64,000 bases of DNA, taken from the NCBI GenBank assembly GCA_038063755.1, contig JBBTUL010000011.1:71040-135039 (forward strand). Direction: 5' to 3'. A program made the translations under genes and the position numbers. Position 1 is the stretch's first letter. Every line of letters begins with the position of its first letter. Shown here in pieces: positions 8,014 through 62,732 of this stretch. The notes beneath the pieces were generated by a model, which had not been told where the DNA came from, made no database searches, and worked only from the letters and a program-made list of their open reading frames with translations. Origin of the DNA: Patescibacteria group bacterium. GTDB taxonomy: Bacteria; Patescibacteriota; Minisyncoccia; UBA6257; 2-01-FULL-56-20.

Positions 8014-9381
8014 TTATTTGAGGAGGCGTTCAGTATAGCTCACAATGTCGCCCGCACCCATCATGATGACCATGATTCTGTGCTTTTTGCCTAAGATCGA
8101 ATCCGTGAATTTCAAAAGTGTTTTCCTTGAAAGGGAATGGGGATCTTCAAGGTAGAGAAGGGGGAGGTGTCTGTTCTTCTTCCCGATGGCGCGTGCCAGA
8201 TCGTTCGCGGTCATGACGCCCCTTTCCTCGTCGCGACCCTTTACCCGATAGGTCGGCAAGAGGATAAGCCCATCCGCTTCGTCGAACGCTCCGACAAACT
8301 CTTTGAATAACTTCTTTAACCGTTCGGCATGGTGTGGTTGGAACACCGGCAGGATAAGGTGGCCGCGGAATTTTTCTCGAAATGCACCGATGGTCGCTCG
8401 GATCTCGGTTGGATGGTGCGCGTAGTCGTCAAACACCGTAAATGCCATACCGCCGGAATGAAACGATCCGCGCCTCTCGTATCTTCTCCAGGCCCCGCGA
8501 TACCGTCCAAGCGAAGCAAGAATATCCCTTTTAGGAATTTCAAGAAGAGCGCCCAGTCTGTAAACCGCAAGCGCGTTTGACGCGTTGTGGATCCCAGGGA
8601 TTTGCAATGTGCGACGGATGGCTGGGGCGATACTGTCATCCATCGAATACCAGACAAGTTGTAGTTTATTTTTCCGCACCAACGTCTCGATCTTTCCCTT
8701 GAGCGAGAATAAGTACTCATTGTCGCGATTCAGGATAAGCGAACCGCCGACTTGCGTTTGCGCAAGGAAGCGCAAGAATGTCTTTTTAATGTCGGCAAGA
8801 TCGCGATAACAATCCAAGTGCTCGCGGTCGATATTCGTTACGATAGCGCAGTACGGCGCGTAATTTAAAAATGCTTTTTTGAACTCGTCGGCTTCAAGCA
8901 CCAGGTAATCTCCGTGGCCGTTTCGGAAGTTTGAGTTTCTAAATTCTTTGAGTTTCGTTCCCACGATAACAGTCGGATCAAGACCTACCGAAGTCAAAAG
9001 AAGCGCCGCAAGAGCCGTCGTGGTGCTTTTCCCATGAGCGCCGGAGACGGTAATTGTCTTGTACTCACGGGTAATCCTCCCCACCATTTCGGGGTAGGAG
9101 AGAACTTCTATTTTCCGCTTCCGAGCCTCAAAAAGCTCTTTATTTTCGGGTTTTATGGCATTCGAATATATGACAAGCCTCGCGGCGGGGGGAACCCCTC
9201 CAGAATGGCCAATTTTGAGCTTTACGCCCTCTTTTACCAAGGAATCGGTGAGTTCACTTCGGGTGGCGTCGGAGCCCGAAACAGCCCATTTTTGGGCCAA
9301 AAACCACCTGGCGAGGGAACTTACCCCGATACCGCCGATGCCTATAAAATGGACCGATTTTCTCGCCTGTCTTTTCGTCAT
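8014..9381 (-). CDS. murC: UDP-N-acetylmuramate--L-alanine ligase
   Basis: FIGIGGIGVSSLARW N-terminus, GTKLKEF, Mur ligase middle and C domains. Confidence 0.9.
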   Translation of the reverse strand: MTKRQARKSVHFIGIGGIGVSSLARWFLAQKWAVSGSDATRSELTDSLVKEGVKLKIGHSGGVPPAARLVIYSNAIKPENKELFEARKRKIEVLSYPEMVGRITREYKTITVSGAHGKSTTTALAALLLTSVGLDPTVIVGTKLKEFRNSNFRNGHGDYLVLEADEFKKAFLNYAPYCAIVTNIDREHLDCYRDLADIKKTFLRFLAQTQVGGSLILNRDNEYLFSLKGKIETLVRKNKLQLVWYSMDDSIAPAIRRTLQIPGIHNASNALAVYRLGALLEIPKRDILASLGRYRGAWRRYERRGSFHSGGMAFTVFDDYAHHPTEIRATIGAFREKFRGHLILPVFQPHHAERLKKLFKEFVGAFDEADGLILLPTYRVKGRDEERGVMTANDLARAIGKKNRHLPLLYLEDPHSLSRKTLLKFTDSILGKKHRIMVIMMGAGDIVSYTERLLK

Positions 9382-11150
9382 GCGATTTCGCTATTGTAGC
9401 AAGATTCACAGTATACAATCTCCGGTCGATCAGGAGCGTATGAGGTCTCGAATTCATTTGGACAGGAATTCGTACCGTGTGGATGTGCAGCTGTGTTTTG
9501 ATAGACACCGCCCTGCGAAGCCGCTCCCACACAGACACACTTTCGATGCCAAAGTTTAAGTGGATTTCTCTGCTTGAGACGCTCGTAGTGACGACAATTT
9601 GGACAAAGGCGAGGGAGCGCCAGTTTTATTTTCCGGTAAAAAGCGAGCTCTTCGGGAATTATCCGGAAGGCCGTAGTGCACTGATCGTTACAGTCTCCTC
9701 CATGGAGGCATCCGATCGTTTCTTTAAGAACTGACTCATCTATATCCTTGATTTGATCTGGAAGATTTTCGGGTTCTTTTGTGATTGTGTATGACTTGGC
9801 GTCGAGGTCTCGCCAGCGGTAGCCCCTTTCAATAGCATCTTTCTTGGTTAACGGGAAATATTCTTGCGAGAGCGCTTCGTTGTACGCGAAAGGGGAGAGC
9901 TCAGGAGGAAAGAACTCACCATATTTATATACACGCCCGCGTGCATCCACATACGGCATAGCATTCATCTGCTCGATGATCTTGGGAACAAGCGCTTCAT
10001 ATTCTTCCTTTGTATATTGCCTGTTCAGAATGCAATATTGTTTACTGCGTAAACCTATGCAGCCAAAAAGATTGCTGGAAGAATGACACCAGTGGCAGTA
10101 TCTCATCTCACGAGCCGCGTCGGAGTCAGTACAGAAGGCAGTTTTGGACGTGCTCCAGCCGGTCACAACAGATTCATAATTTAATTCCTTTCCGGAACTC
10201 CCATAAATATCGTAGCTGTCCTTCAGATTAAATGCCCTCCCGACGAATTTCACGTTTTCAACTTCATGGACACCAAAACCAGATGTAACATTTTTTGAAT
10301 TCCAAATATTGTCTCCGGTACAGTCGGATGCCTTCGTTTGGTTGGAGAATTTATGGAGCGAACCGACGGCTATTTTGCGATATTCTTCTTCCATCTGTCT
10401 GAGAGTTTCATAGCTTCCCAGATTAATTTTTCCGACCTGAGCTTCGTAATCGGTTTTGGTAAGTTGTTTGTTCCTGAAAACATAACTTTTATTTCGTAGA
10501 CCAGAGCTCATAAAGCAGTTTTTGCAGTTTGCGCAATCGAAAAGAAAGCTTGATTCAACACAACCATGAGAATTATGTAGAAAAGCACTTCTGTAGTTGC
10601 CGCTTCCATCTATATTCTCGTAGCAAAGCTCTGACTTTTGGAGGTACAGCACATCAAAGCAATCCTTTAGGTCGGTGATATTGCTCGAATACGCAACGTT
10701 TTCGCTATCGACCGCCGAATAAGCCAAACAAATATTTTTCGTATTCCTCACAAAGTTTGAGAACTCAGCGTTTTCGTTTTGTGAATATTGCACGAGCGCC
10801 ACTTGGGGAACCTTGCTTTCCAATTGAAAGAATTGATCGAGGAACGGCTTGTTTTGGTCGTATTCTTGTTGGTAGGTTAGCGGGTCCCACCCATCCGATA
10901 GCCAGCACGATTTACAATAGATAGGAAATTTCGCGTCGGGAAGATGCATCGAAACTATCTCCTTGGCGCATAGATCGCACTTTCGCTTGCAGAGAGATCT
11001 TTCGTTTCGCCAAGTTAAGCGGCGAATTAGGCGGCACTCCGGACACCAGGTCGGCGGGGGAACGTTGATCTTTCTGTAGAAATCAAAATCTTCGGGTTCG
11101 ATCGTGAACTCTTTATGGCAGTTTTGACAATTTCGAGCTTCTTGATTCAT
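9378..11150 (-). CDS. cysteine-rich zinc-ribbon-flanked ~590-aa family protein, paralog A
   Basis: N-terminus CQNCHKEFTIEPEDFDFYRKINVPPPTWCPECR..RR..RNER. Central FDCANCKNCFMSSGLRNKSY.F.NKQ..K..YE and YCHWCHSSSNLFGCIGLRSKQYCILNRQYTKEEYE modules. C-terminus AFRIIPEELAFYRKIKLALPRLCPNCRH ... PEIVYCESCYN. 4-nt overlaps with both neighbours. Confidence 0.8.
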   Translation of the reverse strand: MNQEARNCQNCHKEFTIEPEDFDFYRKINVPPPTWCPECRLIRRLTWRNERSLCKRKCDLCAKEIVSMHLPDAKFPIYCKSCWLSDGWDPLTYQQEYDQNKPFLDQFFQLESKVPQVALVQYSQNENAEFSNFVRNTKNICLAYSAVDSENVAYSSNITDLKDCFDVLYLQKSELCYENIDGSGNYRSAFLHNSHGCVESSFLFDCANCKNCFMSSGLRNKSYVFRNKQLTKTDYEAQVGKINLGSYETLRQMEEEYRKIAVGSLHKFSNQTKASDCTGDNIWNSKNVTSGFGVHEVENVKFVGRAFNLKDSYDIYGSSGKELNYESVVTGWSTSKTAFCTDSDAAREMRYCHWCHSSSNLFGCIGLRSKQYCILNRQYTKEEYEALVPKIIEQMNAMPYVDARGRVYKYGEFFPPELSPFAYNEALSQEYFPLTKKDAIERGYRWRDLDAKSYTITKEPENLPDQIKDIDESVLKETIGCLHGGDCNDQCTTAFRIIPEELAFYRKIKLALPRLCPNCRHYERLKQRNPLKLWHRKCVCVGAASQGGVYQNTAAHPHGTNSCPNEFETSYAPDRPEIVYCESCYNSEIA

Positions 11151-22492: not shown

Positions 22493-24427
22493 CTACTCTT
22501 CGTCGTGCGTTATCTCAGCTTTATGAAGTGATTCTGCTATTGCCTTTCTCAGGTCTGCAATGTTAACTCCGTCCTTTTTTCTTTCCGCTCTTTGTTTCTC
22601 TGGCACTGACCTTTCCGAAAGATCCTTGAGCGAAAGAGTTTTTTCGGTACTGCTTTGCTGCGATGCCCTTGCTTCTACTTCAATTCTTGGGACAAAAGAT
22701 CTTTTTCTCTGTTGAAACTGAAGCTCCGATCGCTCTGGGCGCTTCGGAAAGTCTTTATTCTGAATTTCCTGCGGAGCTTTTCGAGACACTGCCTCCTCGG
22801 GCTGCTCCGTCCTTTCCTCTGTCGGATGAAGAATCTTTGTTTTTTCTTCACCGCCTCCCTCGAACTCGATCCCGAGACTCGCAAGATCAGCAGAAAACTG
22901 TTTCTGATTAACGCTGACCTTCGGGGAGGAAGATCTCGATGCAGGCATAATTGTCCCCTCTTTTATCCCGGCGAGACATTCTCGGCAGTATACGGGCTTC
23001 CCGGGTATGGGCTCAAAAGGAACGGTTGTTTCTCTCCCGCAAGATGAGCAAATTGCCGAGAAAGACTCTCCGCTTCTCGGAGTGCTCGCTCGCGACATAA
23101 TTGTTTCTCCCTCTCCTCCCCTCGGAACCATTCCGGCCCATCGATTAATTTCGTCCTCAATGACTTCCCGGGGGCGAGCGTATCTTTCCCTTGACTGCTC
23201 AATAATTTCCTGCGCAGTCGATGCGTCCTCTACTCCTTTTATGGGCGGTAATGTTTTCGCGGAAAACGGCCTTGAGGCAACCCCGTCGCATAAAAGTTTC
23301 AAATAAATATGATAGTTCGGAAGGTTTACGATGTCTTGGATAGTAAACTCCGGCTCAAACTCGCTTTCGAGAAACTCCGCATCGGCAGCCCCGACACGAA
23401 AGATGATCATCGTTCCTGCGTTTCCAAAAATTGCGTCTCTTACTTTTGTAGAAACATCCGTAACAAGTTGTCCTATATATTGATGCGCCAGTATCAGATC
23501 AAGTCGATATTTTCTTGCTTCAGATAAAACACTCGCAAATGAATCCGTTGCGAAGTTTTGAAATTCATCGACGTAGAGATAGAAGTCGACGCGCTCGTCC
23601 TCCGGAATACGGACGCGCTCCATCGAGGCAAGTTGAATTTTCGTAATAAGCATCGCTCCCAAAAGCGCGGAGTTATCCTCCCCAATGCGCCCCTTGGAGA
23701 CATTTACCAAAAAAATCTTTCCTTCGTTCATAATGTTAAATATGTCCATCGTGCTTTTCGATTGTCCGACGACGTTTCTCACGATTGCGGTTGAAAGAAA
23801 TTGACCAACCTTGTTTTGAATAGGCGCTATGGCTTCGTTTCTGAACTTGTCTTGCCACGCCTCATACTCGTGAATCCAAAAAGCCTTTACCACTGGATCT
23901 TTAATGTTATTCACAATGGTCTGCCGAAATTCTTTATCGACCAAAATGCGAGTGATACCAAGGAGCGTTGAGCCGGGTGTGTCGAGAAGCGCAAGGATTG
24001 CGTTGTTTAAAATGTATTCCATTCTCGCCGACCAGACATTTGACCAAATTTTCGTAAAAATTCCCATAAGACCTGAAGCAACCAAATGCTTGTATTTCGG
24101 GTCTGGCAGTTCAAGCACATTAAAGCCAATGTGATAATCGATGTCAGCTGGATTGAAATATACGACATCCTTTACGCGCTCCTTCGGGATTTTCGAAAGA
24201 ACTCCCTCAATAAGCTCTCCGTGCGGGTCAACGACACACACGCCTTCGCCGTTTGCGATATCTTGAATAATAAGATTGCTTAAAAAAGCGGACTTTCCGG
24301 TACCGGTCTTTCCGATAACATACATGTGCTGCCTTCGATCGTTTCTTTTGATGCCAAAAATCCGATCGGCGTTACGAAAATCGGTTTTCGCAAAATATAC
24401 GACATCTCTGTCCGGTCTATCAATCAT
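22493..24427 (-). CDS. soluble VirD4/TraD/TraG-like (T4CP-like) P-loop ATPase with C-terminal zinc ribbon and a long charged tail (T4CP-like-1)
   Basis: Walker A HMYVIGKTGTGKS, Walker B FYLYVDEFQNF, and the AHQYIGQL coupling-protein motif. No N-terminal TM. C-terminal ribbon CSSCGRETTVPFEPIPGKPVYCREC, followed by a ~170-aa E/K/R/S-rich low-complexity tail. Confidence 0.75.
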   Translation of the reverse strand: MIDRPDRDVVYFAKTDFRNADRIFGIKRNDRRQHMYVIGKTGTGKSAFLSNLIIQDIANGEGVCVVDPHGELIEGVLSKIPKERVKDVVYFNPADIDYHIGFNVLELPDPKYKHLVASGLMGIFTKIWSNVWSARMEYILNNAILALLDTPGSTLLGITRILVDKEFRQTIVNNIKDPVVKAFWIHEYEAWQDKFRNEAIAPIQNKVGQFLSTAIVRNVVGQSKSTMDIFNIMNEGKIFLVNVSKGRIGEDNSALLGAMLITKIQLASMERVRIPEDERVDFYLYVDEFQNFATDSFASVLSEARKYRLDLILAHQYIGQLVTDVSTKVRDAIFGNAGTMIIFRVGAADAEFLESEFEPEFTIQDIVNLPNYHIYLKLLCDGVASRPFSAKTLPPIKGVEDASTAQEIIEQSRERYARPREVIEDEINRWAGMVPRGGEGETIMSRASTPRSGESFSAICSSCGRETTVPFEPIPGKPVYCRECLAGIKEGTIMPASRSSSPKVSVNQKQFSADLASLGIEFEGGGEEKTKILHPTEERTEQPEEAVSRKAPQEIQNKDFPKRPERSELQFQQRKRSFVPRIEVEARASQQSSTEKTLSLKDLSERSVPEKQRAERKKDGVNIADLRKAIAESLHKAEITHDEE

Positions 24428-24487
24428 GTCTCTTTATTATACGTTATATTTGCCCCTTCATATAGCATTTTTCACGCTTCTAGCAAC

Positions 24488-26263
24488 CTATCGAGTTTCA
24501 GCCAAAAAACACGACTCACAGTAAACAATTGCCTCTTTCTCATTCGAAAATGTGGTCTCGAATGAGTTCTCACACCTCTTGGATCCGTGAGAATGAATTG
24601 TGTTATTTTTATACTTTCCCGACTCTCCTCCTTCGCACATACAAAATCCCTTCTGCCATCGGGGAGGGTTCCTCTTTGCTGTTCGCGCAGAATGCCGACA
24701 AGGAAAACAGCTTCTTGGAAGGGCAAGATTGAAGCGCTTGTAAAAACCAAGTTCTGCGGATGCAATTTGATAGGCTCGCTTGCAGGAAGCGCATCCGATA
24801 ACCTCTTTAAGAATTTCGTCGGATGTGTCGCTGATGTGGTCTGATAGCTCCTCAGCTCGAACCGTTATTTCAAAGTCGCGCAGATTCGGATCCTGCCACC
24901 CGAAACCCGTTTTTAACGCTTCTTCTTTCGCAAGTGGAAGAAGATCAAGCGCCATTGTTTCGTTGTATGCGTATGGGGAAAACTCCGGAGGAAAAAACTC
25001 GCCGTACCCGTAACTCTTCCCCCTGGCATCAACGTACGGCATCTCCTTCATGTGTTTTTTGAGTAGTGAAACCTTCTTCTGATACTCCTCTTTCGAATAC
25101 TGTTTATTAAAAATGCAATACTGCGCGCTTCTAAGGCCAATGCACGCGAAACAGTTCGAGGAAGAGTGACACTCGATACAATATTCAAGCTCGGTACAAC
25201 CAGGCCAGCATTCGATGCAAAATTTCAAGCGGTTTGATTCGTTGCCACAGGTAACGCATTCATATATAAGCTCGGTTGAATCACCCCAATTGGTGAAGTC
25301 GTATGATTCGCTTGTTCCCGCAAGAATGCTTTGGGAATACTTTACGTTCTCTACCCCTATTGCCTCATAGCAGTATTTTGCGTTTTTGGAATTATACACG
25401 TACTCACCAATTACATTTTCATTCTGGGACCCGTGAAAAAACTTCTCGGGAAACTGCTTGTCCATACTCATCATGCGTTCTTTCATCTTCCGAACTACTT
25501 CGTACGAACCGAGGTCAAACTTTTTGATTTCTCGCTCATATTCTTCCTTTGTATATGGCTTGTTGAAAATATAATATTTCTTATGCAGAAGATTCACGCA
25601 ACCAAAGCAGTCCGAACAATCGTCGCATCGTACGAGAAAGGCAGAGTTTTGACACCCTTCACAGTCGTAGGAGAAAAACGTTTTGTAACAACTTGCGACG
25701 AGAGAAACCTCGCTGCAAAGCTCCAGTTTTCCCGATTGGAAAAAATCCACTGAATCCTTCACATCCATAAAGGTAACGCCATAAAGCGAGTTTTCTCCAC
25801 GACCTCCATTGAAGCAAAGATAGCAATTTTTTAGGTCCCCGGACTGATCGCAATAATCGCTGTTTGAGAGTCTGAGGATAGACCGTGAAGCCCGAGGAAC
25901 TTTTTTGATAAACTCCCGGAATTGCGCAAAAAACGGTCTTGAAAGATCGCACTCTTCCCCAAAAGACAGGGGGTCCCATGAGTCAGACCACCACCGAGGA
26001 TGGTCGTAGACTTGAATCGGAGCTGACCTTGGAAAACTCGAAAATATTTCTTCTTTTGTAACGGCATCGACATTCCGAAATAATTGGTGGTCATTTCTGA
26101 AACACATCCTCCTCTGCATTCTGCACTCCGGACACCGCGTCGGTGGTGGAACATCCATCTTCTTGTAGAAATCGAAGTCTTCGGACTCAATAACAAAGTC
26201 CTTGCTGCAGTTTTGACAGACTTGTCCTGAGCTTGCCGAAGGGTTTTTGGTTTCGTGATTCAT
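24488..26263 (-). CDS. cysteine-rich zinc-ribbon-flanked family protein, paralog B
   Basis: CQNCSKDFVIESEDFDFYKKMDVPPPTRCPECR N-ribbon. The second N-ribbon Cys are lost (RNVDAVTKEEIFSSFPRS). Central YCIECHSSSNCFACIGLRSAQYCIFNKQYSKEEY. C-terminus AIVYCESCF. Confidence 0.8.
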   Translation of the reverse strand: MNHETKNPSASSGQVCQNCSKDFVIESEDFDFYKKMDVPPPTRCPECRMQRRMCFRNDHQLFRNVDAVTKEEIFSSFPRSAPIQVYDHPRWWSDSWDPLSFGEECDLSRPFFAQFREFIKKVPRASRSILRLSNSDYCDQSGDLKNCYLCFNGGRGENSLYGVTFMDVKDSVDFFQSGKLELCSEVSLVASCYKTFFSYDCEGCQNSAFLVRCDDCSDCFGCVNLLHKKYYIFNKPYTKEEYEREIKKFDLGSYEVVRKMKERMMSMDKQFPEKFFHGSQNENVIGEYVYNSKNAKYCYEAIGVENVKYSQSILAGTSESYDFTNWGDSTELIYECVTCGNESNRLKFCIECWPGCTELEYCIECHSSSNCFACIGLRSAQYCIFNKQYSKEEYQKKVSLLKKHMKEMPYVDARGKSYGYGEFFPPEFSPYAYNETMALDLLPLAKEEALKTGFGWQDPNLRDFEITVRAEELSDHISDTSDEILKEVIGCASCKRAYQIASAELGFYKRFNLALPRSCFPCRHSARTAKRNPPRWQKGFCMCEGGESGKYKNNTIHSHGSKRCENSFETTFSNEKEAIVYCESCFLAETR

Positions 26264-26290
26264 GAAGGACTATTTACTTTGGTCCAATCG

Positions 26291-28099
26291 TTACGCCGTC
26301 TCTGCCTGAAAACATCCTTCACAATAAACGATATCGGGAAGCGCCTTGTCATATGGAGACTCGAATGTATTCGTACAGCTTGATGACGATTCGTGGGCTT
26401 GATGCAGGGCGATGTTTTTATAGCCACCATCTAACGACACGTCCCCTCTACACTGACATTCTCGAGTATAGAGCTTTGCCGGAAGACGCTGTTTAATACG
26501 TTCGAAGTGGCGTGAATTGTAACAACGACGAGGGATTGGCAATCCGAACCTTTTATAGAATTCGAGTTCTTGTGGGATGATGCGAAAAACTCCCGTGCAG
26601 TTGTGCAGGATGGCCTCTTCGGAATCTTCATCCCAAGATCGGCATCGGATTGTTTGTCCGAGAAGGTCATCCGTGGCGTCCTCTATGGAATCCGGAACAT
26701 CTTGCCATCGCAGTGTCGCTTCGTGCTTTTTTCCCTCAGGTTTCTTCCATATCAGATGCTGTTCGGCAGCGGCATGTTCGGATAGTGGAAAGTTTTCTTG
26801 CGCGAGCGTGTGGTTATAGGGATAGGGAGAAAATTCCGCCGGGAAAAACTCGCCGTATGGGTACCGTAGCCCATTTGCGTCAACATACGGCATTGTATTC
26901 ATGTGCTCAATAACGCGTTCCCGGAGCGCGAAATACTCTTCCTTCGAATATTGCTTGTTCAAAATACAATACTCTCTCTTCTTAACTCCGGCACATCCGA
27001 AAAGATTTGAGGAATTACTACAATAGAGTGCGTATTCAAGATTCTTGTTTTCGGGCCAGCATTCCCAACAGAAGCGACAGTTATATATCCCCAAGCCACT
27101 TGCGACCGCTTCATAGACCAATTCGGCGTTATCTCCCCAGACGGTATAGTCGTAGCACTGCCTCGTGGGAGGCGTTAGTATGTACTGACAGTAACGACTG
27201 TCTTCAAGGCCAAGCGCAAGATAGCAATTTTCGGCATTTTTTGATTGATAGACATACGATCCCGAAGCATTTACGTTTTTGTTGTTTGCCGCATATTTAT
27301 TCGGAAACTTCAGCCAGAACTCGGCGCTTTTCTTCTTGAACTCTTCGATCTTTCCATAGGAGTTGAGAGCGAATTCCTTTACTCGTCTCTCGTATTCCTC
27401 CTTGGTGTAGGGTTCGTTGAAGATATGATATTTCTTGTTCTTTAAATTCACGCAACCGAAGCAGTCATGGCAACCAATACATTGTTTTGAGAACCACATA
27501 TCGTACGATCCGTTACAGCGCGTTGAAAAAAAGCACTTCGAACAGTCGGCGGAAAACGAAAGCTCGTAGCAGAATTCGCTACTATCCATATGTGAAAAAT
27601 CTATGCAGTTCTTTCCGTTATTAACCCCATTTCCGTACATGCAATCTTCGGCATAATTTCCGTTGAAAACGAGGTAGCAATTTTTAAACCCGGTATAATT
27701 GTTGGAATAGTCACTGTTTGTTCCATACACAACCGAAAGCGAGTAAATCGGCACCGCTTTCCAGAGGTCATAAAGCTGTGCAAGAAACGGCTTTGAAAAA
27801 TCGACCTCGCGCCCGAAAGACATCGGATCGATGGTGTCCCCGAAAAACAATTCATTCTCGACGATTTTTTGGCGGGAATCCGGAGGGAACATTGAAAATA
27901 TTTCCTTGCCCGAAACTTCGCTTTTTCGCTTATATAGGAAGCGCTCGTTTCTAAATGCCATCCTCCGCATCATCCTGCAGGCCGGACACCGCGTCGGTGG
28001 TGGAACATCCATCTTCTTGTAGAAATCGAAATCGACCGGCTCAAGAGCGAAATCCTGGTGACAACTCTCGCAGATGCGGTGTTCTATTGCGTCTGTCAC
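26291..28099 (-). CDS. cysteine-rich zinc-ribbon-flanked family protein, paralog C
   Basis: CESCHQDFALEPVDFDFYKKMDVPPPTRCPACR. Central CIGCHDCFGCVNLKNKKYHIFNEPYTKEEYE and FGCAGVKKREYCILNKQYSKEEY. C-terminus GVFRIIPQELEFYKRFGLPIPRRC ... PDIVYCEGCF. Sits in tandem with B. Confidence 0.8.
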   Translation of the reverse strand: MTDAIEHRICESCHQDFALEPVDFDFYKKMDVPPPTRCPACRMMRRMAFRNERFLYKRKSEVSGKEIFSMFPPDSRQKIVENELFFGDTIDPMSFGREVDFSKPFLAQLYDLWKAVPIYSLSVVYGTNSDYSNNYTGFKNCYLVFNGNYAEDCMYGNGVNNGKNCIDFSHMDSSEFCYELSFSADCSKCFFSTRCNGSYDMWFSKQCIGCHDCFGCVNLKNKKYHIFNEPYTKEEYERRVKEFALNSYGKIEEFKKKSAEFWLKFPNKYAANNKNVNASGSYVYQSKNAENCYLALGLEDSRYCQYILTPPTRQCYDYTVWGDNAELVYEAVASGLGIYNCRFCWECWPENKNLEYALYCSNSSNLFGCAGVKKREYCILNKQYSKEEYFALRERVIEHMNTMPYVDANGLRYPYGEFFPAEFSPYPYNHTLAQENFPLSEHAAAEQHLIWKKPEGKKHEATLRWQDVPDSIEDATDDLLGQTIRCRSWDEDSEEAILHNCTGVFRIIPQELEFYKRFGLPIPRRCYNSRHFERIKQRLPAKLYTRECQCRGDVSLDGGYKNIALHQAHESSSSCTNTFESPYDKALPDIVYCEGCFQAETA

Positions 28100-48860: not shown

Positions 48861-50600
48861 CTATGCGACTTCTGCGTTATAGCATTGCTCGCAGTATACG
48901 ATCTCGGGACGGTCGGGGGCGTAGGAGGTTTCGAATTCGCTTGGGCAGGGAGCGTTTTCGTGGTCGTGCCCTTTCTTGCACATACACCTACGACGCCAAA
49001 GGCGCAATGGTTTATGCAGGTCCATTCGCTCTCCTCTTCTACAGCCGGGGCACAGTCGCGGAATTGGTAAATCCATCTTTCGGTAAAAGCCGAACTCCTG
49101 TTGGGTGGTCTTAAAAGCGAGGGTGCAGTTATGGATGCATCCTTGGCGGTGCTCGCATTCTATAACTTCGCTCAGAATATCGTCGTTGGCCTCCTTGATC
49201 GTAGCCGGCAGATCGCTTGAGGTTTTTGTTGATTGGTACTCTCTTGGTTCCGGCTCGGCCCATCGACAGCCGAACGCCAACGCCTCGTCTTTATGCAGAG
49301 GAAAGTAAAACTGCGTCAGCGATTCGTTATACGCAAACGGGGAAAGTTCGACAGGAAAGAACTCGCCGTACGGGTACACCTGTCCGTTCAATCCAACGTA
49401 TGGATTGTTGCTCATACCCTCAACTATGCTCGCCCGAAGCTCTAAGTACTCGTCTTTGCCGTATTGCTTGTTTAATATGCAATATTGCTTTTTCCGCAGA
49501 CCTACACACCCGAAGAGATCTTGGCTAACACGACAGTAGTCACAATATTGGATTCTCGCACTACTCTCGAACGTGTTTAAAGAAAAATAAATATTGGAAT
49601 CGAGATATCCCACATTAACACCCTCGTATAACAGCGAACACTCCTTGTCCCCTACACCATACATGTCATAGGAATCCTTCGCGTGACTTGCCTGCGCGCA
49701 GTATTTGATATCTTCACAATCTGCGGAGTTGAAACTATGTTTTGCATTCTTGCAGTTAACGAGGTTATCGCCCGAGGAGCCAACGCACTTGATGATATTC
49801 GCATATTTATGAAACGCGGCTTCTTTCATGCGAACATATTCCATACGGAGTTCCCTCTGGGTAGAATAGTCGCTACTAATAGCTTCGAGCCGCTTCCGAT
49901 ACTCTTCTTCGGCAAGCTGTTGGTTACGAAACACAAATTTACCGTTGCGTAAATTGCTGCTCATAAAGCAGTCGGAAGAGTTGCGACAGTCATAAAGGTA
50001 TGAGCTATTCATGCAATCCTTGCAATCAGAAATGAAGACGCACTTCACGCAGCGTTCTGAATCCATAGCCTCGTAAACGCTCTCGGAATTCATAATCACG
50101 ATGGAATCAAGTGTTTCTCTACAGCTCCACGCCCCTTTGGAATACGACACTGTGTCTGAATTCAGCGTTGAGGGTGAAAGATACACGTTTTTAGAAAACC
50201 ACGTGAAATCAGAATAGGGCGAATTCTCGTTTTGATAAGCTTCCAGACTTGGCCTCGGCATGACATCCGAAAGCTCCTTCCACTGAGAGAAAAAAGTCTT
50301 GTTCGAATTGTATTCGAGGCCGTAATCCAATGGATCCCACTTATCAGACCACCAACACTCATTGCAATACACGGGGAATTTAACGCTTTTCGAATAATGA
50401 GAAATGCCCTGTATGCCGCATAACCCACACTGGAACTTATGCATATTGAACTCATTTCGGAAAAGCATTCTTCGCTTCATCCTACACTCCGGGCACCACG
50501 TCGGCGCCGGAACGTCTATCTTTTTGTAGAAATCGAAATCCTCGGATTCGATGGTGAACGCTTGATGACAACTTTGACAATTTTTTGTCTCTTGATTCAT
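48861..50600 (-). CDS. cysteine-rich zinc-ribbon-flanked family protein, paralog D
   Basis: MNQETKNCQSCHQAFTIESEDFDFYKKIDVPAPTWCPECR. Central YCDYCRVSQDLFGCVGLRKKQYCILNKQYGKDEY. C-terminus PEIVYCEQCYNAEVA. Start chosen to match the family N-terminus; the ORF is open to 50621. Confidence 0.8.
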   Translation of the reverse strand: MNQETKNCQSCHQAFTIESEDFDFYKKIDVPAPTWCPECRMKRRMLFRNEFNMHKFQCGLCGIQGISHYSKSVKFPVYCNECWWSDKWDPLDYGLEYNSNKTFFSQWKELSDVMPRPSLEAYQNENSPYSDFTWFSKNVYLSPSTLNSDTVSYSKGAWSCRETLDSIVIMNSESVYEAMDSERCVKCVFISDCKDCMNSSYLYDCRNSSDCFMSSNLRNGKFVFRNQQLAEEEYRKRLEAISSDYSTQRELRMEYVRMKEAAFHKYANIIKCVGSSGDNLVNCKNAKHSFNSADCEDIKYCAQASHAKDSYDMYGVGDKECSLLYEGVNVGYLDSNIYFSLNTFESSARIQYCDYCRVSQDLFGCVGLRKKQYCILNKQYGKDEYLELRASIVEGMSNNPYVGLNGQVYPYGEFFPVELSPFAYNESLTQFYFPLHKDEALAFGCRWAEPEPREYQSTKTSSDLPATIKEANDDILSEVIECEHRQGCIHNCTLAFKTTQQEFGFYRKMDLPIPRLCPGCRRGERMDLHKPLRLWRRRCMCKKGHDHENAPCPSEFETSYAPDRPEIVYCEQCYNAEVA

Positions 50601-50655
50601 GGTCGTGTTTGTCCCGCCCACAGGCGGGATCCTCGATTTTGTCTATTCGCTACGC

Positions 50656-50730: not shown

Positions 50731-52452
50731 TTATGCAACCTCTGCGTTATGGCAAGATTCACAGTATAGATTCTCTCCGGGAAGCGATGTTTCAAACGCG
50801 TTTCCGCATGGGCTGTCGCCATGCGCGTGAGAAACGCTGTTTTGATAACCGCCCGAGCCAATCGTTCCTCTGCAAGCACATTGGCCTTCGTGGAGGTAAT
50901 TTGGTCCGCGAGCTTGAAATCTCCTGGCATGTCGACAATCTGGACAAAGCCGGGGAAGCGGCACTGAAAGTTTTTTGTAAAACGCAAATTCATCGGGAAT
51001 AATTCGATAATTTTTCTTGCAATCGATGCAGGCAAAAATCTTTTCAACAAGCGATTGATCGGCATCGCCAATCGCATCAGGAATCTCCGCCCAGGAAATC
51101 GTTTCTTTTCCAAATGTGCCGCGCTCGAAATCCTCCCACTTAAAACCAAGCTCGAGCGCCTCTTCCTTTGAGAGCGGAAACTGTTCCATTGCTGCGGATT
51201 CGTTGTAGCCAAACGTGCTGACTGATGCGGGGAAGAATTCGCCGTAATTTCCCGCATCTTTCATAGACGCAACTATCTTCTCGCGCAGTGTTTGATACTC
51301 CTCTTTCGAATATTCGTGGTTAAGAATGCAGTAATCTTTTTTACGAACTCCAACCGATCCAAAACAGTTGTTCGCATTGAAGCAGTAGTAGCAGTATTCC
51401 GTAAACGAACACGTCCAGCACATGCGGCAGCAGATTTGATTCGAGACATCCATTCCGGCGTTCACCGTGTTATACATCATCTCAGCGTTGCGCCCCGTAG
51501 TATCGCAGTCCATACAATCCTTGGCGTTACGCCACACATGGACGTTATACTTACAATCCTCGGCCTCATAACAATGAAAGCAGGATTTGCAATTTTTTGC
51601 GTTTTTTATGTAGTTTCCGCTTGAATTTGGCGCTTGGACAATTTCTGCATACTTTCTCGGTTGGGTTTTCAAAAATTTCTCGAATTTTTCTCTGAACGCT
51701 TCAACGCCGGAATTCGTATCGAGTCGGAAATTCTGCAGCTCCTTTTCATATTCTTCTTTCGAATATGGCTTATTGAAAATGCAGTATTTGGAGTTTCTTA
51801 AATTCACACACCCAACGCAGTTCGACACACCTCGACAGTCAAACAGAAAGGCACTCTCGCGGCAATCATGACATCCTCTGCTCCAGGAAATGCCGTAGCA
51901 GCCATAACAGTCGTCGCTTTCGTACGAAAGCTCGGTTTGGTGTGAAAATGAAACGTCGACAAGATCACGACATTGCTGAATCCAATAACAATGCGTGCAA
52001 TTCTCGTTGTTTGAAGACTCCACGATCATGTAGCAATTCTTGCTGTCTGCGGAAATATTCGTGTATTCCGAATTCGTGCTACGAATGTATACGAGCGCTA
52101 CTTTCGGAACCGAATCCCATACCGCCTTGAACTGTTCCATGAACGGTCTCGATGGCGTGTATGCCCGGCCATAATCAAGTGGATTCCAATCGTCGGAGAA
52201 CCAGCAGTCATGACACCAGACGGTATACGGCTTCTCGGGACTATACATGGAGATCACCACTTTCTTGCATTTGTCGCACGCGCGTCGATAGAAACTCCGT
52301 TCGTTACGGAATGAAAGTCGGTGTCTCGCACGACAGAGAGGACAAAGCTTCGGCGCCAGAACGTCTATCTTTTTATAGAAATCAAAATCTTCCGGTTCGA
52401 TGAAAAAAGGCTTCTTGCATTGTGTGCAGGTTTTCGTCTCCGGCATTGTCAT
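50731..52452 (-). CDS. cysteine-rich zinc-ribbon-flanked family protein, paralog E
   Basis: CTQCKKPFFIEPEDFDFYKKIDVLAPKLCPLCR. Central FDCRGVSNCVGCVNLRNSKYCIFNKPYSKEEYE. C-terminus NYRIIPDEFAFYKKLSVPLPRLCPDCRH ... NLYCESCHNAEVA. Confidence 0.8.
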   Translation of the reverse strand: MTMPETKTCTQCKKPFFIEPEDFDFYKKIDVLAPKLCPLCRARHRLSFRNERSFYRRACDKCKKVVISMYSPEKPYTVWCHDCWFSDDWNPLDYGRAYTPSRPFMEQFKAVWDSVPKVALVYIRSTNSEYTNISADSKNCYMIVESSNNENCTHCYWIQQCRDLVDVSFSHQTELSYESDDCYGCYGISWSRGCHDCRESAFLFDCRGVSNCVGCVNLRNSKYCIFNKPYSKEEYEKELQNFRLDTNSGVEAFREKFEKFLKTQPRKYAEIVQAPNSSGNYIKNAKNCKSCFHCYEAEDCKYNVHVWRNAKDCMDCDTTGRNAEMMYNTVNAGMDVSNQICCRMCWTCSFTEYCYYCFNANNCFGSVGVRKKDYCILNHEYSKEEYQTLREKIVASMKDAGNYGEFFPASVSTFGYNESAAMEQFPLSKEEALELGFKWEDFERGTFGKETISWAEIPDAIGDADQSLVEKIFACIDCKKNYRIIPDEFAFYKKLSVPLPRLCPDCRHARRFQARGPNYLHEGQCACRGTIGSGGYQNSVSHAHGDSPCGNAFETSLPGENLYCESCHNAEVA

Positions 52453-59352: not shown

Positions 59353-60801
59353 TCAAATAAGCGGCTCCGGAGGAAGATTCGACTGTATCGCCGAATGACC
59401 CTTCCCTTCGATAATTGCCTTTTCCTGCGCACTCCGAATAATAGTCGACTCTTCCTCTGCAATAAGTCGTCGCGCGTCATCAGCCGGAATAGAATATTTT
59501 TCTCGCGACTGAGCAAGGATTTCGGGCTTAAACGAACGATGTGGAGGATCAAGAACGGCCAGCGTTTCGGCAGAGAAAGGATCGTACGACTCTCCATCAA
59601 TCGTCATTTTAATATAAAATTCCCGCATCCCAAGATTGATCATGTCTTTTACGTCGAAGATCGGAGCCATTTCTGGTTTAAGCGTCACGGCATCATCCCC
59701 TCCCACGCGAAAGATCACAATACTCCCTACGTTTCCCAAAACCGCTGCTTGAACGCGCGGCAGGAGCTGTCCCATATATTGGTGCGCAACGGTAAGTGCT
59801 AAGCCGTACTTTCTGGCCTCCGAGAGAATATTCTCGAATGTCTCAGTAACCAAGTTTTGAAACTCGTCGACATAAAGATAAAAATCGTGACGCTCGGATT
59901 CGGGCAAGGCAGCGCGAGCCATACCAGCCTGCTTGATCTTGGTAATGAACATCGAACCGAAAAAACTTGAGTTCTCTTCTCCAAGCCTCCCTTTAGAAAG
60001 ATTGATCAAGATAATCTTCTTTTGCTGAATAAGCTCCTCAAGTTTTATTTTGTTCCCTTTTTGTCCGAAAATATTTCGCAGTGTTGGATCTGAAAGAAAC
60101 TGTCCGAGCTTGTTTACGAGCGGAATAATCGCGTCGGTATCGAACTTTTCGGACCAATCCGCAAATTCGATCGCCCAGAAACGCTTTACCATGTCGTCTT
60201 CGATGTATTCGACGACCTTCTGGCGATAGTTCCGGTCAGTAAGCATAGAAATCATACCTCGCATGGTGGCGTGCGGGTAATCAAGGAGCGCTAAAACCGT
60301 GAATCGAAAAACGTGCTCAAGACGCGGCGTCCAGTTCGCGCCAAACTGTTTTTCCATTACTTCAATCAGGCCCTGAGTGAGCTGATGCTTAAACAATGGA
60401 TCAACATTTGCAAGCGGATTGAAAGATGCCGGAAACGCGTGATCTGATGGGTCTATAACGACTACATCCCCTATCCGATTCTCGGGAATGAAATCAAGCG
60501 TCGCTTCGACAACGTCTCCGTGCGGATCAATGAGGCAAAGACCGTATCCTTGCGCAATGTCTTGGCGCATCATAAGTTCAAGCAGCTTCGTCTTTCCAAC
60601 GCCGCTTTTTCCAATTATGTACATATGACGTCGCCGATCTTTCCGTTTGATGCCAAAAATGAAACGTTTCTCTTCAAGCGCCGCAACGTAATTCGTTCTT
60701 CCGATAAAAGAAACTTCGCTCGTGTCTACTTTGCCGTATATCGGCAAATCCGTCGGGGGCGGAGCATATTTGATTATCTGTATTCGATTCGCCTTTGGCA
60801 T
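59353..60801 (-). CDS. soluble VirD4/TraD/TraG-like (T4CP-like) P-loop ATPase (T4CP-like-2)
   Basis: HMYIIGKSGVGKT Walker A, FYLYVDEFQNL Walker B, AHQYMGQLL. The N-terminal region is alignable with T4CP-like-1 (FGIKR.DRR.HMY.IGK). ATGA start/stop overlap with the upstream gene. Confidence 0.75.
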   Translation of the reverse strand: MPKANRIQIIKYAPPPTDLPIYGKVDTSEVSFIGRTNYVAALEEKRFIFGIKRKDRRRHMYIIGKSGVGKTKLLELMMRQDIAQGYGLCLIDPHGDVVEATLDFIPENRIGDVVVIDPSDHAFPASFNPLANVDPLFKHQLTQGLIEVMEKQFGANWTPRLEHVFRFTVLALLDYPHATMRGMISMLTDRNYRQKVVEYIEDDMVKRFWAIEFADWSEKFDTDAIIPLVNKLGQFLSDPTLRNIFGQKGNKIKLEELIQQKKIILINLSKGRLGEENSSFFGSMFITKIKQAGMARAALPESERHDFYLYVDEFQNLVTETFENILSEARKYGLALTVAHQYMGQLLPRVQAAVLGNVGSIVIFRVGGDDAVTLKPEMAPIFDVKDMINLGMREFYIKMTIDGESYDPFSAETLAVLDPPHRSFKPEILAQSREKYSIPADDARRLIAEEESTIIRSAQEKAIIEGKGHSAIQSNLPPEPLI

Positions 60802-62686: not shown

Positions 62687-62732
62687 TTGTCATTATTATA
62701 CCATCGTCAGCCTTGTTGTGTGAACGCAGAAA

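What the first reader, a model, noticed from the sequence alone, without database searches (positions are those of the whole stretch)
22493..28099. Cys-rich family genetically coupled to soluble VirD4/TraD-like ATPases that share its terminal zinc ribbon
At two separate loci a Cys-rich paralog lies directly next to a T4CP-like P-loop ATPase on the same strand. At locus 1 the order is C, B, then T4CP-like-1 (22493-24427), with gaps of 27 and 60 nt. At locus 2, T4CP-like-2 (59353-60801) is followed by F after a 40-nt gap. Both ATPases have Walker A HMY[VI]IGK[TS]G[TV]GK[ST], Walker B FYLYVDEFQN and the coupling-protein A-H-Q-Y-[IM]-G-Q-L motif. Both lack the N-terminal TM anchor of canonical T4CPs, so the soluble call is inference. 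T4CP-like-1 also carries a C-terminal ribbon, CSSCGRETTVPFEPIPGKPVYCREC. It has the same 15-residue spacing and conserved positions (C-x2-E-x5-[FY]-x-P-x5-VYC-x2-C) as the C-terminal ribbon of the family (for example CPNEFETSYAPDRPEIVYCESC in A). Its CxxC-x2-E-x-T-[IV] start also resembles the family's N-terminal ribbon (CQNCHKEFTIEPED). A shared terminal module between an ATPase and its neighbouring multi-copy partner suggests a physical ATPase-substrate or ATPase-adaptor system. No relaxase, VirB4, integrase or pilin genes are present, so a conventional conjugative reading is not supported.
Basis: partly seen in the sequence, partly recalled or inferred. Interest (0 to 1): 0.85.

Follow-up and report, generated by a model that had tools for sequence, protein, structure and literature searches.

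The report
Orphan coupling-ATPase pair with zinc-finger arrays
In a group of ultra-small bacteria, two secretion-type motor ATPases with no known job are consistently encoded next to tandem arrays of an uncharacterised zinc-finger protein family, which gives the first candidate partners for these motors, although what the set does remains unproven.

Summary
Coordinates, gaps (27, 60 and 40 nt), Walker A/B and AHQY[IM]GQL motifs, and the lack of TM segments are all correct.

The coupling holds across genomes:
- In 80 species-level loci seeded with T1, the Cys-rich family (CYS) occurs in 50, with 133 copies, all on T1's strand.
- 44 of 115 ATPase genes have a CYS neighbour, against 18.9±3.3 in shuffles.
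- CYS density falls from 23% of genes next to an ATPase to 0 beyond nine genes.
- Seeding with CYS instead, 52% of loci of at least 10 kb hold T1 or T2.

T1 and T2 are themselves a conserved pair, usually adjacent or separated only by CYS arrays.

T1's ribbon is the known CxxC-x17-CxxC zinc finger (PF23477/TIGR04272). It is not related to the N-terminal finger.

T2 is probably not free-soluble. It shares an operon with a membrane protein that has a VirB4 N-domain fold. That protein and a T2-like ATPase are fused in Bacillus phage G gp156.

The setting is housekeeping chromosome, not a mobile element. The function is unknown. A client or adaptor role for CYS is the best guess, but it is inference.

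The parts
26291..28099 (-). Cys-rich paralog C (602 aa). It is the first gene of the C-B-T1 run and lacks the internal CxxC-x17-CxxC finger.
   Evidence: promoter-like sites at 28322-28295 and 28266-28239 upstream
24488..26263 (-). Cys-rich paralog B (591 aa), 27 nt after C and 60 nt before T1. It lacks the internal finger.
   Evidence: N-terminal ribbon hits PF13451 zf_Tbcl at 20.8 bits, below the cutoff of 24
22493..24427 (-). T1: a TrwB/VirD4-type P-loop ATPase (644 aa) with no TM segment. It has a C-terminal zinc finger followed by a ~160-aa charged tail with a conserved 'VNIxELRKAIAESL' motif.
22973..23065 (-). T1 zinc finger CSSCGRETTVPFEPIPGKPVYCREC (aa 455-485): PF23477 zf_Tbcl_2 / TIGR04272 CxxC-x17-CxxC.
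59353..60801 (-). T2: the paralogous TrwB/VirD4-type ATPase (482 aa). It has no TM segment and no zinc finger. Its N-terminus carries a conserved 'IIKYAPPPxxLP[IV][YF]GKV' motif.
57561..59312 (-). Cys-rich paralog F (583 aa), 40 nt after T2 and the last gene of the predicted p16-p27-T2-F operon.
60801..61304 (-). p27: a small membrane protein (167 aa, hydrophobic stretch aa 6-45). Its stop overlaps the T2 start, and it is conserved upstream of T2 in other species.
61322..62686 (-). p16: a single-pass membrane protein (454 aa, TM aa 1-28) with a VirB4 N-terminal-domain-like fold and no Walker A. It carries the precomputed Pfam family PF26449 and is conserved upstream of T2.
62695..62724 (-). 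Near-consensus sigma-70 promoter with an extended -10 (11 of 12 matches, TG), directly upstream of p16.
62735..62763 (-). Strong intrinsic terminator (13-bp stem) separating gene p17 from the p16-p27-T2-F unit.
62771..63811 (-). p17: a protein with sigma-70 region 4 and a sub-threshold HARE-HTH match (346 aa). It is conserved directly upstream of p16 in one synteny type, and its membership in the module is uncertain.
9378..11150 (-). Cys-rich paralog A (590 aa), not adjacent to an ATPase gene. It was used as the structure-prediction target.
48861..50621 (-). Cys-rich paralog D (586 aa), in tandem with E, about 7-9 kb from T2.
50731..52452 (-). Cys-rich paralog E (573 aa), in tandem with D.
26091..26202 (.). 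One copy of a 112-nt direct repeat; the second copy is at 27945-28056, spacing 1854 nt. The repeat lies in the N-terminal-ribbon coding parts of B and C. A 75-nt overlap between the two alignment blocks marks the junction of a one-unit deletion in a sister assembly.

Best explanation
The finding is one half of a conserved chromosomal gene module. It was recovered from Patescibacteria MAGs labelled Jorgensen-, Lipton-, Nomura- and Brennerbacteria, Paceibacterota and Minisyncoccia.

The core of the module is two paralogous ATPases of the type IV coupling protein (TrwB/VirD4) kind that lack their own membrane anchor.
- T1 ends in a CxxC-x17-CxxC zinc finger followed by a long charged tail.
- T2 is co-transcribed with a single-pass membrane protein that has the fold of the VirB4 N-terminal domain (p16) and with a small membrane protein (p27). 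This arrangement probably holds T2 at the membrane.

Tandem arrays of 0-8 copies of a ~590-aa cytoplasmic protein (CYS) sit beside or between the two ATPase genes on the same strand. Each CYS protein carries the same two-zinc-finger cassette at both ends (a zf_Tbcl-like finger plus a CxxC-x17-CxxC-like finger). Between the cassettes lies a more variable Cys-rich beta-solenoid.

Most likely mechanism (inferred): the CYS proteins are clients of the ATPase pair, either cargo or cargo adaptors. The conserved terminal finger cassettes serve as the handle and the solenoid is the diversifying part. T1's own finger probably binds the same ligand or docking surface as the CYS fingers.

Shown here: the gene coupling, the domain homologies, the fold assignments and the non-mobile context.
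Inferred: co-function, direct contact, and any translocation.
For: Coupling seeded with T1:
- CYS is present in 50 of 80 T1-seeded species loci, with 133 of 133 copies on T1's strand, against 78% of all genes.
- 44 of 115 ATPase genes have a CYS neighbour, against 18.9±3.3 in within-locus shuffles; 0 of 2000 shuffles reach the observed value.
- The CYS share of genes is 0.23, 0.16, 0.12 and 0.08 at gene distances 1-4, and 0 beyond distance 9.
- The association survives at least 11 distinct arrangements that include CYS and two different syntenic backgrounds.

Coupling seeded with CYS: 23 of 44 loci of at least 10 kb contain T1 or T2. I estimate roughly 5% would be expected for two genes in a genome of 0.6-1 Mb.

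T1 and T2 as a pair: T2 is present in 35 of 80 loci. It is directly adjacent to T1 in 10, and CYS genes lie between the two in 19.

Shared module:
- The T1 finger profile against CYS aa 53-90 gives probability 96.9%, E 1.7e-10. Against the CYS C-terminus it gives 81%, E 1.2e-5.
- Within CYS, the N-terminal finger matches the finger at aa 476-530 (98.8%), and the second finger matches the C-terminal one (90%).
- A strict CxxC-x17-CxxC pattern occurs only in CYS and T1 among 1389 genes of these neighbourhoods.

CYS structure and conservation:
- The AF2 model has pLDDT 84 and pTM 0.81, with a central thin beta-solenoid.
- The zinc-finger cassettes at both ends and the region just before the C-terminal cassette are more conserved (0.70-0.80) than the solenoid and the middle of the protein (0.45-0.56).

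T2 partners:
- A promoter and terminator layout defines a p16-p27-T2-F unit.
- PHROG 5156 and phage G gp156 join a p16-like N half to a T-like ATPase C half.

Literature: about two VirD4-like T4CPs per Patescibacteria genome, nearly all far from virB4 and of unassigned function (PMC12102498). The CxxC-x17-CxxC domain binds zinc experimentally (PMC12704099).
Against: - No experiment or complex prediction links CYS to the ATPases.
- About half of the CYS genes sampled have no ATPase gene within 10 kb, and arrays of eight copies occur without one.
- 30 of the 80 T1 loci have no CYS within 10 kb.
- T1's finger is present whether or not CYS is nearby: 44 of 69 against 7 of 12.
- Spacing between CYS and ATPase genes (median 42 nt) is no tighter than the background in these compact genomes (30 nt).
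- These genomes have strongly conserved synteny and strand bias. The 80 loci are related species, so counts are not independent events.
- Tightly folded zinc-binding domains are unusual for proteins that have to pass a narrow secretion channel.
- Gene calls in the loci are my own crude ORF calls.
Confidence: 0.45

Rival explanations
1. This is a nucleic-acid machine rather than a protein-cargo system. T1 and T2 would be DNA (or RNA) translocases, as in plasmid coupling proteins and FtsK. The CYS proteins would be zinc-finger nucleic-acid-binding accessory factors that load or guide the motors, for example in DNA uptake or chromosome handling.
For: - The best Pfam model is the 'T4SS coupling protein DNA-binding domain'.
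- T1 lies two genes from ComEC and its MBL partner in the window, and in the T1-EF-P-MnmA-ComEC synteny of many species.
- A protein with sigma-70 region 4 and a sub-threshold HARE-HTH match heads the T2 neighbourhood.
- Treble-clef CxxC fingers often bind nucleic acids (general knowledge).
- The CYS proteins have no signal peptide or TM segment.
Against: - ComEC adjacency sits inside a block of unrelated housekeeping genes (EF-P, MnmA, AspRS, Ndk). It is absent in the other synteny type, where the module sits between dnaK and dnaJ.
- No nucleic-acid binding has been shown for PF23477 or PF13451.
- Variable multi-copy arrays are unusual for core DNA-handling cofactors.
Confidence: 0.22
2. There is no functional link. 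The CYS family expands by tandem duplication at a recombination-permissive chromosomal site that happens to lie near T1/T2. The shared zinc finger is a promiscuous domain acquired independently.
For: - Solitary CYS genes and ATPase-free arrays are common.
- Ribbon presence in T1 is uncorrelated with nearby CYS.
- Intergenic spacing equals the background.
- A unit-length deletion or collapse between repeats shows the arrays are recombinationally fluid.
- PF23477 is a known domain that also occurs in unrelated proteins.
Against: - The association persists in two unrelated syntenic backgrounds and many gene orders, on both sides of either ATPase and between them.
- There is a steep distance decay and about ten-fold reverse enrichment.
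- All 133 copies are co-oriented with T1.
- The strict finger pattern is exclusive to these two families among 1389 neighbourhood genes.
Confidence: 0.18
3. This is a proteostasis module. The ATPases and CYS proteins would act with the DnaK/DnaJ/GrpE chaperone system, for example as an unfoldase plus zinc-finger co-chaperones or clients.
For: In the Nomurabacteria/Paceibacterota-type synteny the order is GrpE-(CYS)-PaaX-like-DnaK-T1-(CYS)n-RsmE-T2-DnaJ. The module is therefore nested inside the otherwise contiguous dnaK-dnaJ region in many species.
Against: - In the window and the other synteny type the module is nowhere near dnaK.
- No homology to chaperone domains was found in CYS, T1 or T2.
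Confidence: 0.08
4. These are conventional conjugative or effector-translocating coupling proteins of a T4SS carried on a mobile element.
For: Pfam T4CP models are passed. Patescibacteria do encode a VirB4-based T4SS elsewhere in the genome (PMC12102498).
Against: - There is no TM anchor.
- There is no relaxase, VirB4 ATPase, integrase or pilin in the 64-kb window. The recurrent gene families flanking T1 in the 80 loci that I annotated are all housekeeping.
- T1 orthologues are 60-78% identical across many lineages, as expected of a core gene.
- NCBIfam TraD/VirD4 equivalog scores are far below their cutoffs.
- The literature finds only 148 of 5,713 such genes near virB4.
- No CYS relative is found in IMG/VR viral contigs.
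Confidence: 0.05

Closest known systems
Type IV coupling proteins (TrwB of R388, VirD4, TraD, TraG)
   Same: The FtsK/HerA-superfamily P-loop domain is shared. T1 and T2 pass the gathering scores of the Pfam models TrwB_AAD_bind, T4SS-DNA_transf and TraG-D_C. TrwB is the only solved structure found by sequence.
   Different: - There is no N-terminal transmembrane domain.
- There is no neighbouring relaxase or mating-pair genes.
- The genes are core chromosomal, with two paralogs per genome.
- T1 carries a C-terminal zinc finger and a tail.
- T2 pairs with a separate membrane protein that resembles the VirB4 N-domain.
- NCBIfam equivalog cutoffs are missed by hundreds of bits.
Orphan VirD4-like T4CP homologues of Patescibacteria (Microb Genom 2025, PMC12102498)
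   Same: These are almost certainly the same genes: about two per genome, encoded away from virB4, with exaptation to another function suggested.
   Different: On term searches, that paper never uses the word 'zinc' and gives no partner for these ATPases. It does not report the zinc finger, the Cys-rich arrays or the T1-T2 pairing. It describes TrsD (VirB4-N-terminal-like) homologues mainly next to virB4, not next to the T4CP genes.
CxxC-x17-CxxC domain (TIGR04272 / PF23477 zf_Tbcl_2), e.g. small zinc-binding proteins of Methanosarcina mazei
   Same: T1 aa 455-485 is a full-score member. The CYS second finger and C-terminal finger are profile-level relatives. Zinc binding has been shown for M. 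mazei members.
   Different: Here the finger is appended to an ATPase and duplicated at both ends of a 590-aa solenoid protein. The CYS C-terminal copy has lost one Cys of the first knuckle. No function is known for the domain.
VirB4/TrwK N-terminal domain, and Bacillus phage G gp156 (PHROG 5156)
   Different: - In the window the two halves are separate genes, with a small membrane protein between them.
- The ATPase half is closer in sequence to VirD4/TraD than to VirB4.
- The phage proteins are themselves uncharacterised.
Type VII secretion loci (EccC/EssC FtsK-like ATPase with adjacent variable substrate arrays): a working analogy only
   Different: No homology of CYS to Esx, PE or LXG substrates, and no EccB, EccD or EssB genes were seen. 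The analogy is from my own knowledge and was not tested.

Membership tests
Type IV coupling protein (VirD4/TraD/TrwB/TraG) | P-loop NTPase domain with Walker A and Walker B motifs that matches curated T4CP profiles | tested here: met
   T1 scores 54.1 bits on TrwB_AAD_bind (cutoff 20.5), 35.5 on T4SS-DNA_transf (20.1) and 31.8 on TraG-D_C (22). T2 scores 37.2, 24.1 and 22.9. The motifs are located.
Type IV coupling protein (VirD4/TraD/TrwB/TraG) | N-terminal transmembrane anchor | tested here: not met
   Walker A starts at aa 39 in T1 and aa 64 in T2. The highest 19-residue hydropathy is 1.31 and 1.52, with no TM-like window.
Type IV coupling protein (VirD4/TraD/TrwB/TraG) | Genomic association with a relaxase and/or VirB4-type mating-pair genes | tested here: not met
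   None among the 54 window proteins scanned. The recurrent neighbours in 80 loci are housekeeping genes. The literature reports only 148 of 5,713 near virB4.
Type IV coupling protein (VirD4/TraD/TrwB/TraG) | Reaches the NCBIfam equivalog or subfamily cutoffs for TraD / VirD4-like proteins | tested here: not met
   The best scores are 46-52 bits against cutoffs of 250-647.
Type IV coupling protein (VirD4/TraD/TrwB/TraG) | Hexameric, substrate- or DNA-stimulated ATPase that docks on a T4SS channel | not testable with these tools
   This needs biochemistry or complex modelling.
CxxC-x17-CxxC zinc finger (TIGR04272 / PF23477 zf_Tbcl_2) | T1 C-terminal ribbon scores above the curated cutoffs | tested here: met
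   TIGR04272 scores 58.3 bits (cutoff 36) and PF23477 scores 53.9 bits (cutoff 27). The 25-residue motif is present in 119 of 120 orthologues.
CxxC-x17-CxxC zinc finger (TIGR04272 / PF23477 zf_Tbcl_2) | CYS internal finger (aa ~53-90 of A, D, E and F) belongs to the family | tested here: inconclusive
   The exact CxxC-x17-CxxC spacing is present. Pfam gives only E 0.63-0.65, but hhalign against the T1 finger profile gives 96.9%, E 1.7e-10. One homologue is annotated with PF23477.
CxxC-x17-CxxC zinc finger (TIGR04272 / PF23477 zf_Tbcl_2) | CYS C-terminal ribbon belongs to the family | tested here: inconclusive
   Pfam gives E 0.011 for A, 0.14 for D and no hit for B, C, E and F. hhalign gives 81%, E 1.2e-5 against T1 and 90% against the internal finger. 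The first knuckle has only one Cys.
zf_Tbcl treble-clef finger (PF13451) | CYS N-terminal ribbon scores above the gathering cutoff | tested here: not met
   It scores 20.8-20.9 bits against a cutoff of 24. It is duplicated at aa 476-530 (hhalign 98.8%) and unrelated to T1's finger (2.8%).
VirB4 (for p16) | N-terminal-domain fold | tested here: met
   [not shown]
VirB4 (for p16) | C-terminal P-loop ATPase domain in the same polypeptide | tested here: not met
   p16 is 454 aa and I saw no Walker A motif in its sequence. The ATPase is a separate gene (T2). The two are fused only in relatives such as phage G gp156.
Known anti-phage defence systems (PADLOC) | Component proteins match defence-system models | tested here: not met
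   CYS, p16 and p27 have no hit. T1 and T2 have only generic ATPase-level hits to HerA, mad8 and DndH. p17 matches MzaA only through sigma region 4.

The most novel reading that the evidence does not exclude
T1, T2, p16 and p27 would form a previously unrecognised membrane-anchored translocation or handling machine specific to Patescibacteria. It would be derived from T4SS ATPase parts: a VirD4-like motor plus a split VirB4 N-domain anchor. It would work independently of the canonical oriC-proximal T4SS. The zinc-finger/beta-solenoid arrays would be its diversifying cargo, for example host-interaction effectors or surface proteins recognised through their terminal finger cassettes.
Probability: 0.2. 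Interest if true: 0.85.

Novelty: new variant of a known kind. Interest (0 to 1): 0.66.

Why it matters
Patescibacteria (CPR) genomes are tiny, yet the literature reports about two VirD4-like ATPases per genome, with no assigned role and no link to their T4SS (PMC12102498). This analysis gives those orphans a concrete conserved gene set:
- a T1/T2 pair;
- a membrane partner with a VirB4 N-domain fold;
- a very large protein family with no annotation.

That family has at least 2,283 clusters at 50% identity, roughly 8,000 clusters at 90% identity, and no Pfam model covering the whole protein. It shares a zinc finger with T1.

The open question of what the exapted coupling proteins of CPR bacteria do now has named candidate partners that can be tested. 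If the arrays prove to be cargo, this would be a new export or handling route in organisms whose biology depends on interaction with a host.

Tried and rejected
- Resemblance of T1's ribbon to the family's N-terminal ribbon: rejected (hhalign probability 2.8%).
- PDB sequence search for CYS: no hit.
- Foldseek against afdb50: the library was unavailable.
- NCBIfam, PADLOC and PHROGs for CYS: nothing meaningful.
- IMG/VR scan for CYS relatives: none. A viral or mobile origin is not supported.
- Literature searches for the domain names (zf-trcl, PF13451, PF23477, TIGR04272) and for a Cys-rich CPR family: nothing relevant.
- Correlation between T1 having the finger and CYS lying nearby: none.
- Pattern linking retention of the internal CYS finger to adjacency. 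Copies next to T2 mostly lack it (10 of 12), and copies next to T1 mostly keep it (19 of 29). The window shows the opposite, so I did not interpret this.
- Intergenic spacing as evidence of an operon: not discriminating, because the background is equally tight.
- Conjugative and defence-system readings: rejected on context and profile scans.
- Complex prediction (ATPase with CYS): not possible with the tools.

Full report
**1. Observation**

All genes concerned are on the minus strand.
- Paralog C is at 26291-28099, B at 24488-26263 and T1 at 22493-24427. The gaps are 27 and 60 nt.
- T2 is at 59353-60801 and is followed by F at 57561-59312 after 40 nt.

- Walker A: GKTGTGKS in T1 and GKSGVGKT in T2.
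- Walker B: FYLYVDE.
- AHQY[IM]GQL.

Walker A begins at residue 39 in T1 and 64 in T2. No 19-residue window in T1, T2 or any paralog reaches membrane-like hydrophobicity.

Six paralogs of the Cys-rich family (CYS) lie in the window: A, B, C, D, E and F. They are 35-46% identical pairwise and contain 32-43 cysteines each.

The shared ribbon pattern is C-x2-E-x4-[FY]-x-P-x5-VYC-x2-C with a 17-residue spacer, not 15 or x5.

**2. What the proteins are**

*T1 and T2.* Both pass the Pfam gathering scores for TrwB_AAD_bind, T4SS-DNA_transf and TraG-D_C. They fall hundreds of bits short of every NCBIfam TraD/VirD4 equivalog. TrwB is the only solved structure found by sequence, and the match is weak.

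*T1's ribbon.* T1 residues 455-485 are a full-score member of a named domain: PF23477 zf_Tbcl_2, also TIGR04272 'CxxC-x17-CxxC'. Zinc binding has been shown for Methanosarcina members of this domain (PMC12704099).

*T1 orthologues.* They are 60-78% identical across Jorgensen-, Lipton-, Nomurabacteria, Minisyncoccia and related groups. All 120 best hits keep the fused finger. Sources call them 'CxxC-x17-CxxC domain-containing protein' or 'T4SS DNA-binding domain-containing protein'.

*The CYS family.* It is very large and unannotated.
- All of the roughly 8,000 candidate 90%-identity clusters scored were significant.
- A full HMMER scan finds 2,283 clusters at 50% identity with E of at most 1e-30, nearly all 550-600 aa.
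- There is essentially no Pfam coverage, and the source names are 'hypothetical protein'.

**3. The shared module**

Profile-profile comparison of 119 T1 fingers with segments of a 66-sequence CYS alignment gives these results:

| T1 finger compared with | Probability | E-value |
|---|---|---|
| CYS residues 53-90 | 96.9% | 1.7e-10 |
| CYS C-terminus | 81% | 1.2e-5 |
| CYS N-terminal ribbon | 2.8% | not significant |

It is present in A, D, E and F. It has lost its cysteines in B and C.
- The C-terminal copy keeps only one Cys of the first knuckle.

Within CYS, the N-terminal ribbon matches a second copy at residues 476-530 (98.8%). That ribbon is zf_Tbcl-like and scores 20.8 bits against a cutoff of 24. 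The second finger matches the C-terminal one (90%).

CYS therefore carries the same two-finger cassette at each end, and T1 carries one finger of the second type.

Among 1389 genes in the window plus 80 related loci, the strict CxxC-x17-CxxC pattern occurs only in CYS (82 of 139) and T1 (69 of 81).

A shared module is therefore real.

**4. Co-localisation across genomes**

*Seeded with T1.* A scan of one genome per species returned 80 loci with flanks of up to 10 kb. I called ORFs crudely, clustered them, and searched with a CYS HMM.
- CYS is present in 50 of 80 loci, with 133 copies. All 133 are on T1's strand, against 78% of all genes.
- 44 of 115 ATPase genes have a CYS gene as an immediate neighbour. 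Within-locus shuffles give 18.9±3.3 (maximum 30 in 2000).
- The CYS fraction of genes is 0.23, 0.16, 0.12 and 0.08 at gene distances 1-4. It is 0 beyond distance 9.

*T1 and T2 as a pair.* T2 is present in 35 of the 80 loci. T1 and T2 are directly adjacent in 10 loci, and CYS genes lie between them in 19.

*Arrangements.* Twelve arrangement classes occur, among them cA, Ac, BcA, AcB, cAcB and BA. They fall in two different syntenic backgrounds:
- (i) SecD-SecF-p17-p16-p27-T2-(CYS)-T1-EF-P-MnmA-ComEC-MBL-AspRS-Ndk.
- (ii) GrpE-(CYS)-PaaX-like-DnaK-T1-(CYS)n-RsmE-T2-DnaJ.

Ndk in (i) is named only from my reading of its sequence. The other neighbours were confirmed with Pfam.

*Seeded with CYS.* A metagenome scan used paralog A as reference, the copy that is not next to an ATPase here. 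T1 or T2 was found in 23 of 44 loci of at least 10 kb and in 10 of 19 loci of at least 20 kb. There were about 2.6-3.0 CYS copies per locus and arrays of up to eight. For two genes in a genome of 0.6-1 Mb, I estimate about 5% would be expected.

*Caveats.*
- About half of the CYS genes are solitary or sit in arrays without an ATPase.
- 30 T1 loci lack CYS within 10 kb.
- The species sampled are related.
- Intergenic spacing (median 42 nt) equals the background.
- Having the finger in T1 does not predict a nearby CYS gene: 44 of 69 against 7 of 12.

**5. T2 is probably not free-soluble**

Upstream of T2 lie p27 (167 aa, hydrophobic stretch at residues 6-45; its stop overlaps the T2 start) and p16 (454 aa, TM at residues 1-28).

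The regulatory layout points to a four-gene unit:
- A near-perfect extended -10 promoter sits directly before p16.
- A 13-bp-stem terminator separates p16 from the upstream gene p17, which has sigma-70 region 4 and a sub-threshold HARE-HTH match.
- The next gene after F is on the other strand.

So p16-p27-T2-F is a plausible operon. The order p17-p16-p27-T2 recurs in other species.

Fusion evidence:
- PHROG 5156 is an 824-position profile. p16 maps to positions 78-305, T1 to 402-807 (E 7e-64) and T2 to 388-817.
- Bacillus phage G gp156 is 825 aa. Its C half is T2-like (26% identity, E 6e-29). Its N half is p16-like (hhalign 92.6%).

This fusion argues that p16 and the ATPase work as one unit at the membrane.

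**6. Context and literature**

Pfam scans of 54 window proteins show housekeeping genes: TrmD, ComEC, MurC/D/G, FtsW, GluRS, UvrB, UvrD-like, Tgt, QueA, DinB, Nth and others. There is no relaxase, VirB4 ATPase, integrase or pilin. No CYS relative is found in IMG/VR.

A 2025 survey found 5,713 VirD4-like T4CPs in 2,918 Patescibacteria genomes. Only 148 were near virB4, and the authors suggested exaptation to another function. On term searches, the paper never uses the word 'zinc' and gives no partner for these ATPases.

**7. Interpretation**

*Shown:*
- A conserved chromosomal module of two T4CP-type ATPases.
- A membrane partner for T2 with a VirB4 N-domain fold.
- Co-oriented CYS arrays.
- A zinc finger shared by T1 and CYS.

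*Inferred:* the CYS proteins act with the ATPases. I favour a client role (cargo or adaptor).
- The conserved terminal cassettes would act as the handle. The zinc-finger cassettes at both ends, and the region just before the C-terminal cassette, have column conservation of 0.70-0.80.
- The variable solenoid would be the payload, with conservation of 0.45-0.56.
- This resembles the way coupling-type ATPases in T4SS and T7SS loci sit next to variable substrate arrays. That analogy comes from my own knowledge.

*Confidence:* that the families form one functional module, about 0.6-0.7. For the specific client mechanism, about 0.3.

*Rivals:*
- A nucleic-acid-handling machine with zinc-finger accessory factors.
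- Non-functional synteny at a duplication hotspot.
- A chaperone-linked role, suggested by nesting between dnaK and dnaJ.
- A conventional conjugative coupling protein, which the context largely excludes.

**8. Verdict**

It needs three corrections:
- the ribbon mapping;
- the 'soluble' call for T2;
- the idea that the shared ribbon by itself implies contact.

The ATPases are a new variant of a known kind. The module as a whole has not, as far as I could find, been described.

Noticed in passing
window 9378-11150, 48861-50621, 50731-52452, 57561-59312 (aa ~58-82 of A, D, E, F): A canonical CxxC-x17-CxxC finger (for example CDLCAKEIVSMHLPDAKFPIYCKSC) sits right after the N-terminal ribbon in four paralogs. 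It has lost its cysteines in B and C, the two copies next to T1. It is the best match to T1's finger (96.9%).
   Followed up: yes
[not shown]
   Followed up: yes
window 61322-61400 (p16 C-terminus) and 60730-60801 (T2 N-terminus): A short conserved motif, [AG]PPxxLP[IVF][YF]G, occurs in the flexible C-terminal tail of p16 (GPPAGLPIYGEE) and at the N-terminus of T2 (APPPTDLPIYGKV). It is seen across all species examined and may be a common docking peptide.
   Followed up: partly
window 60801-61304 (p27): The soluble part of this small membrane protein contains 'RAHRVRNDLVH', an R-x4-H motif that is conserved in another species and is reminiscent of HEPN/DUF4145 domains. It has no Pfam hit.
   Followed up: no
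L163:1183-2940 versus window 24488-28099; repeat at 26091-26202 and 27945-28056: A sister assembly (Hainich groundwater) with a 100% identical T1 has a single chimeric gene in place of C and B. Its first ~40 aa come from C and the rest from B. The junction is a 75-nt overlap between the two alignment blocks, inside the ribbon-coding repeat. This is either real one-unit copy-number variation or an assembly collapse.
   Followed up: partly
loci such as L028, L039, L043, L056, L060, L066, L068: In the Nomurabacteria/Paceibacterota-type genomes the whole module is nested in the chaperone region: GrpE-(CYS)-PaaX-like-DnaK-T1-(CYS)n-RsmE-T2-DnaJ.
   Followed up: partly
window 22493-22972 (T1 tail): After the finger, T1 orthologues share 'LxKIKxGE', then a 110-190-aa basic low-complexity stretch, then a conserved near-C-terminal 'VNIxELRKAIAESL' motif. 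This suggests a docking helix on a flexible tether.
   Followed up: partly
window 62771-63870: Gene p17 (sigma-70 region 4 plus a sub-threshold HARE-HTH match, 346 aa) has a perfect TTGACA-17-TATAAT promoter and its own strong terminator. It is conserved directly upstream of p16 in one synteny type and directly downstream of SecD/SecF.
   Followed up: partly
window 1-64000: Almost every real gene in the 64-kb window is on the minus strand. This strand bias means that co-orientation alone is weak evidence for operons here.
   Followed up: no
L089 (metagenome contig Ga0172379_10006490): Eight CYS genes lie in uninterrupted tandem over 12.6 kb, with no ATPase gene on the 15.6-kb contig. This shows that large ATPase-free arrays exist.
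   Followed up: no
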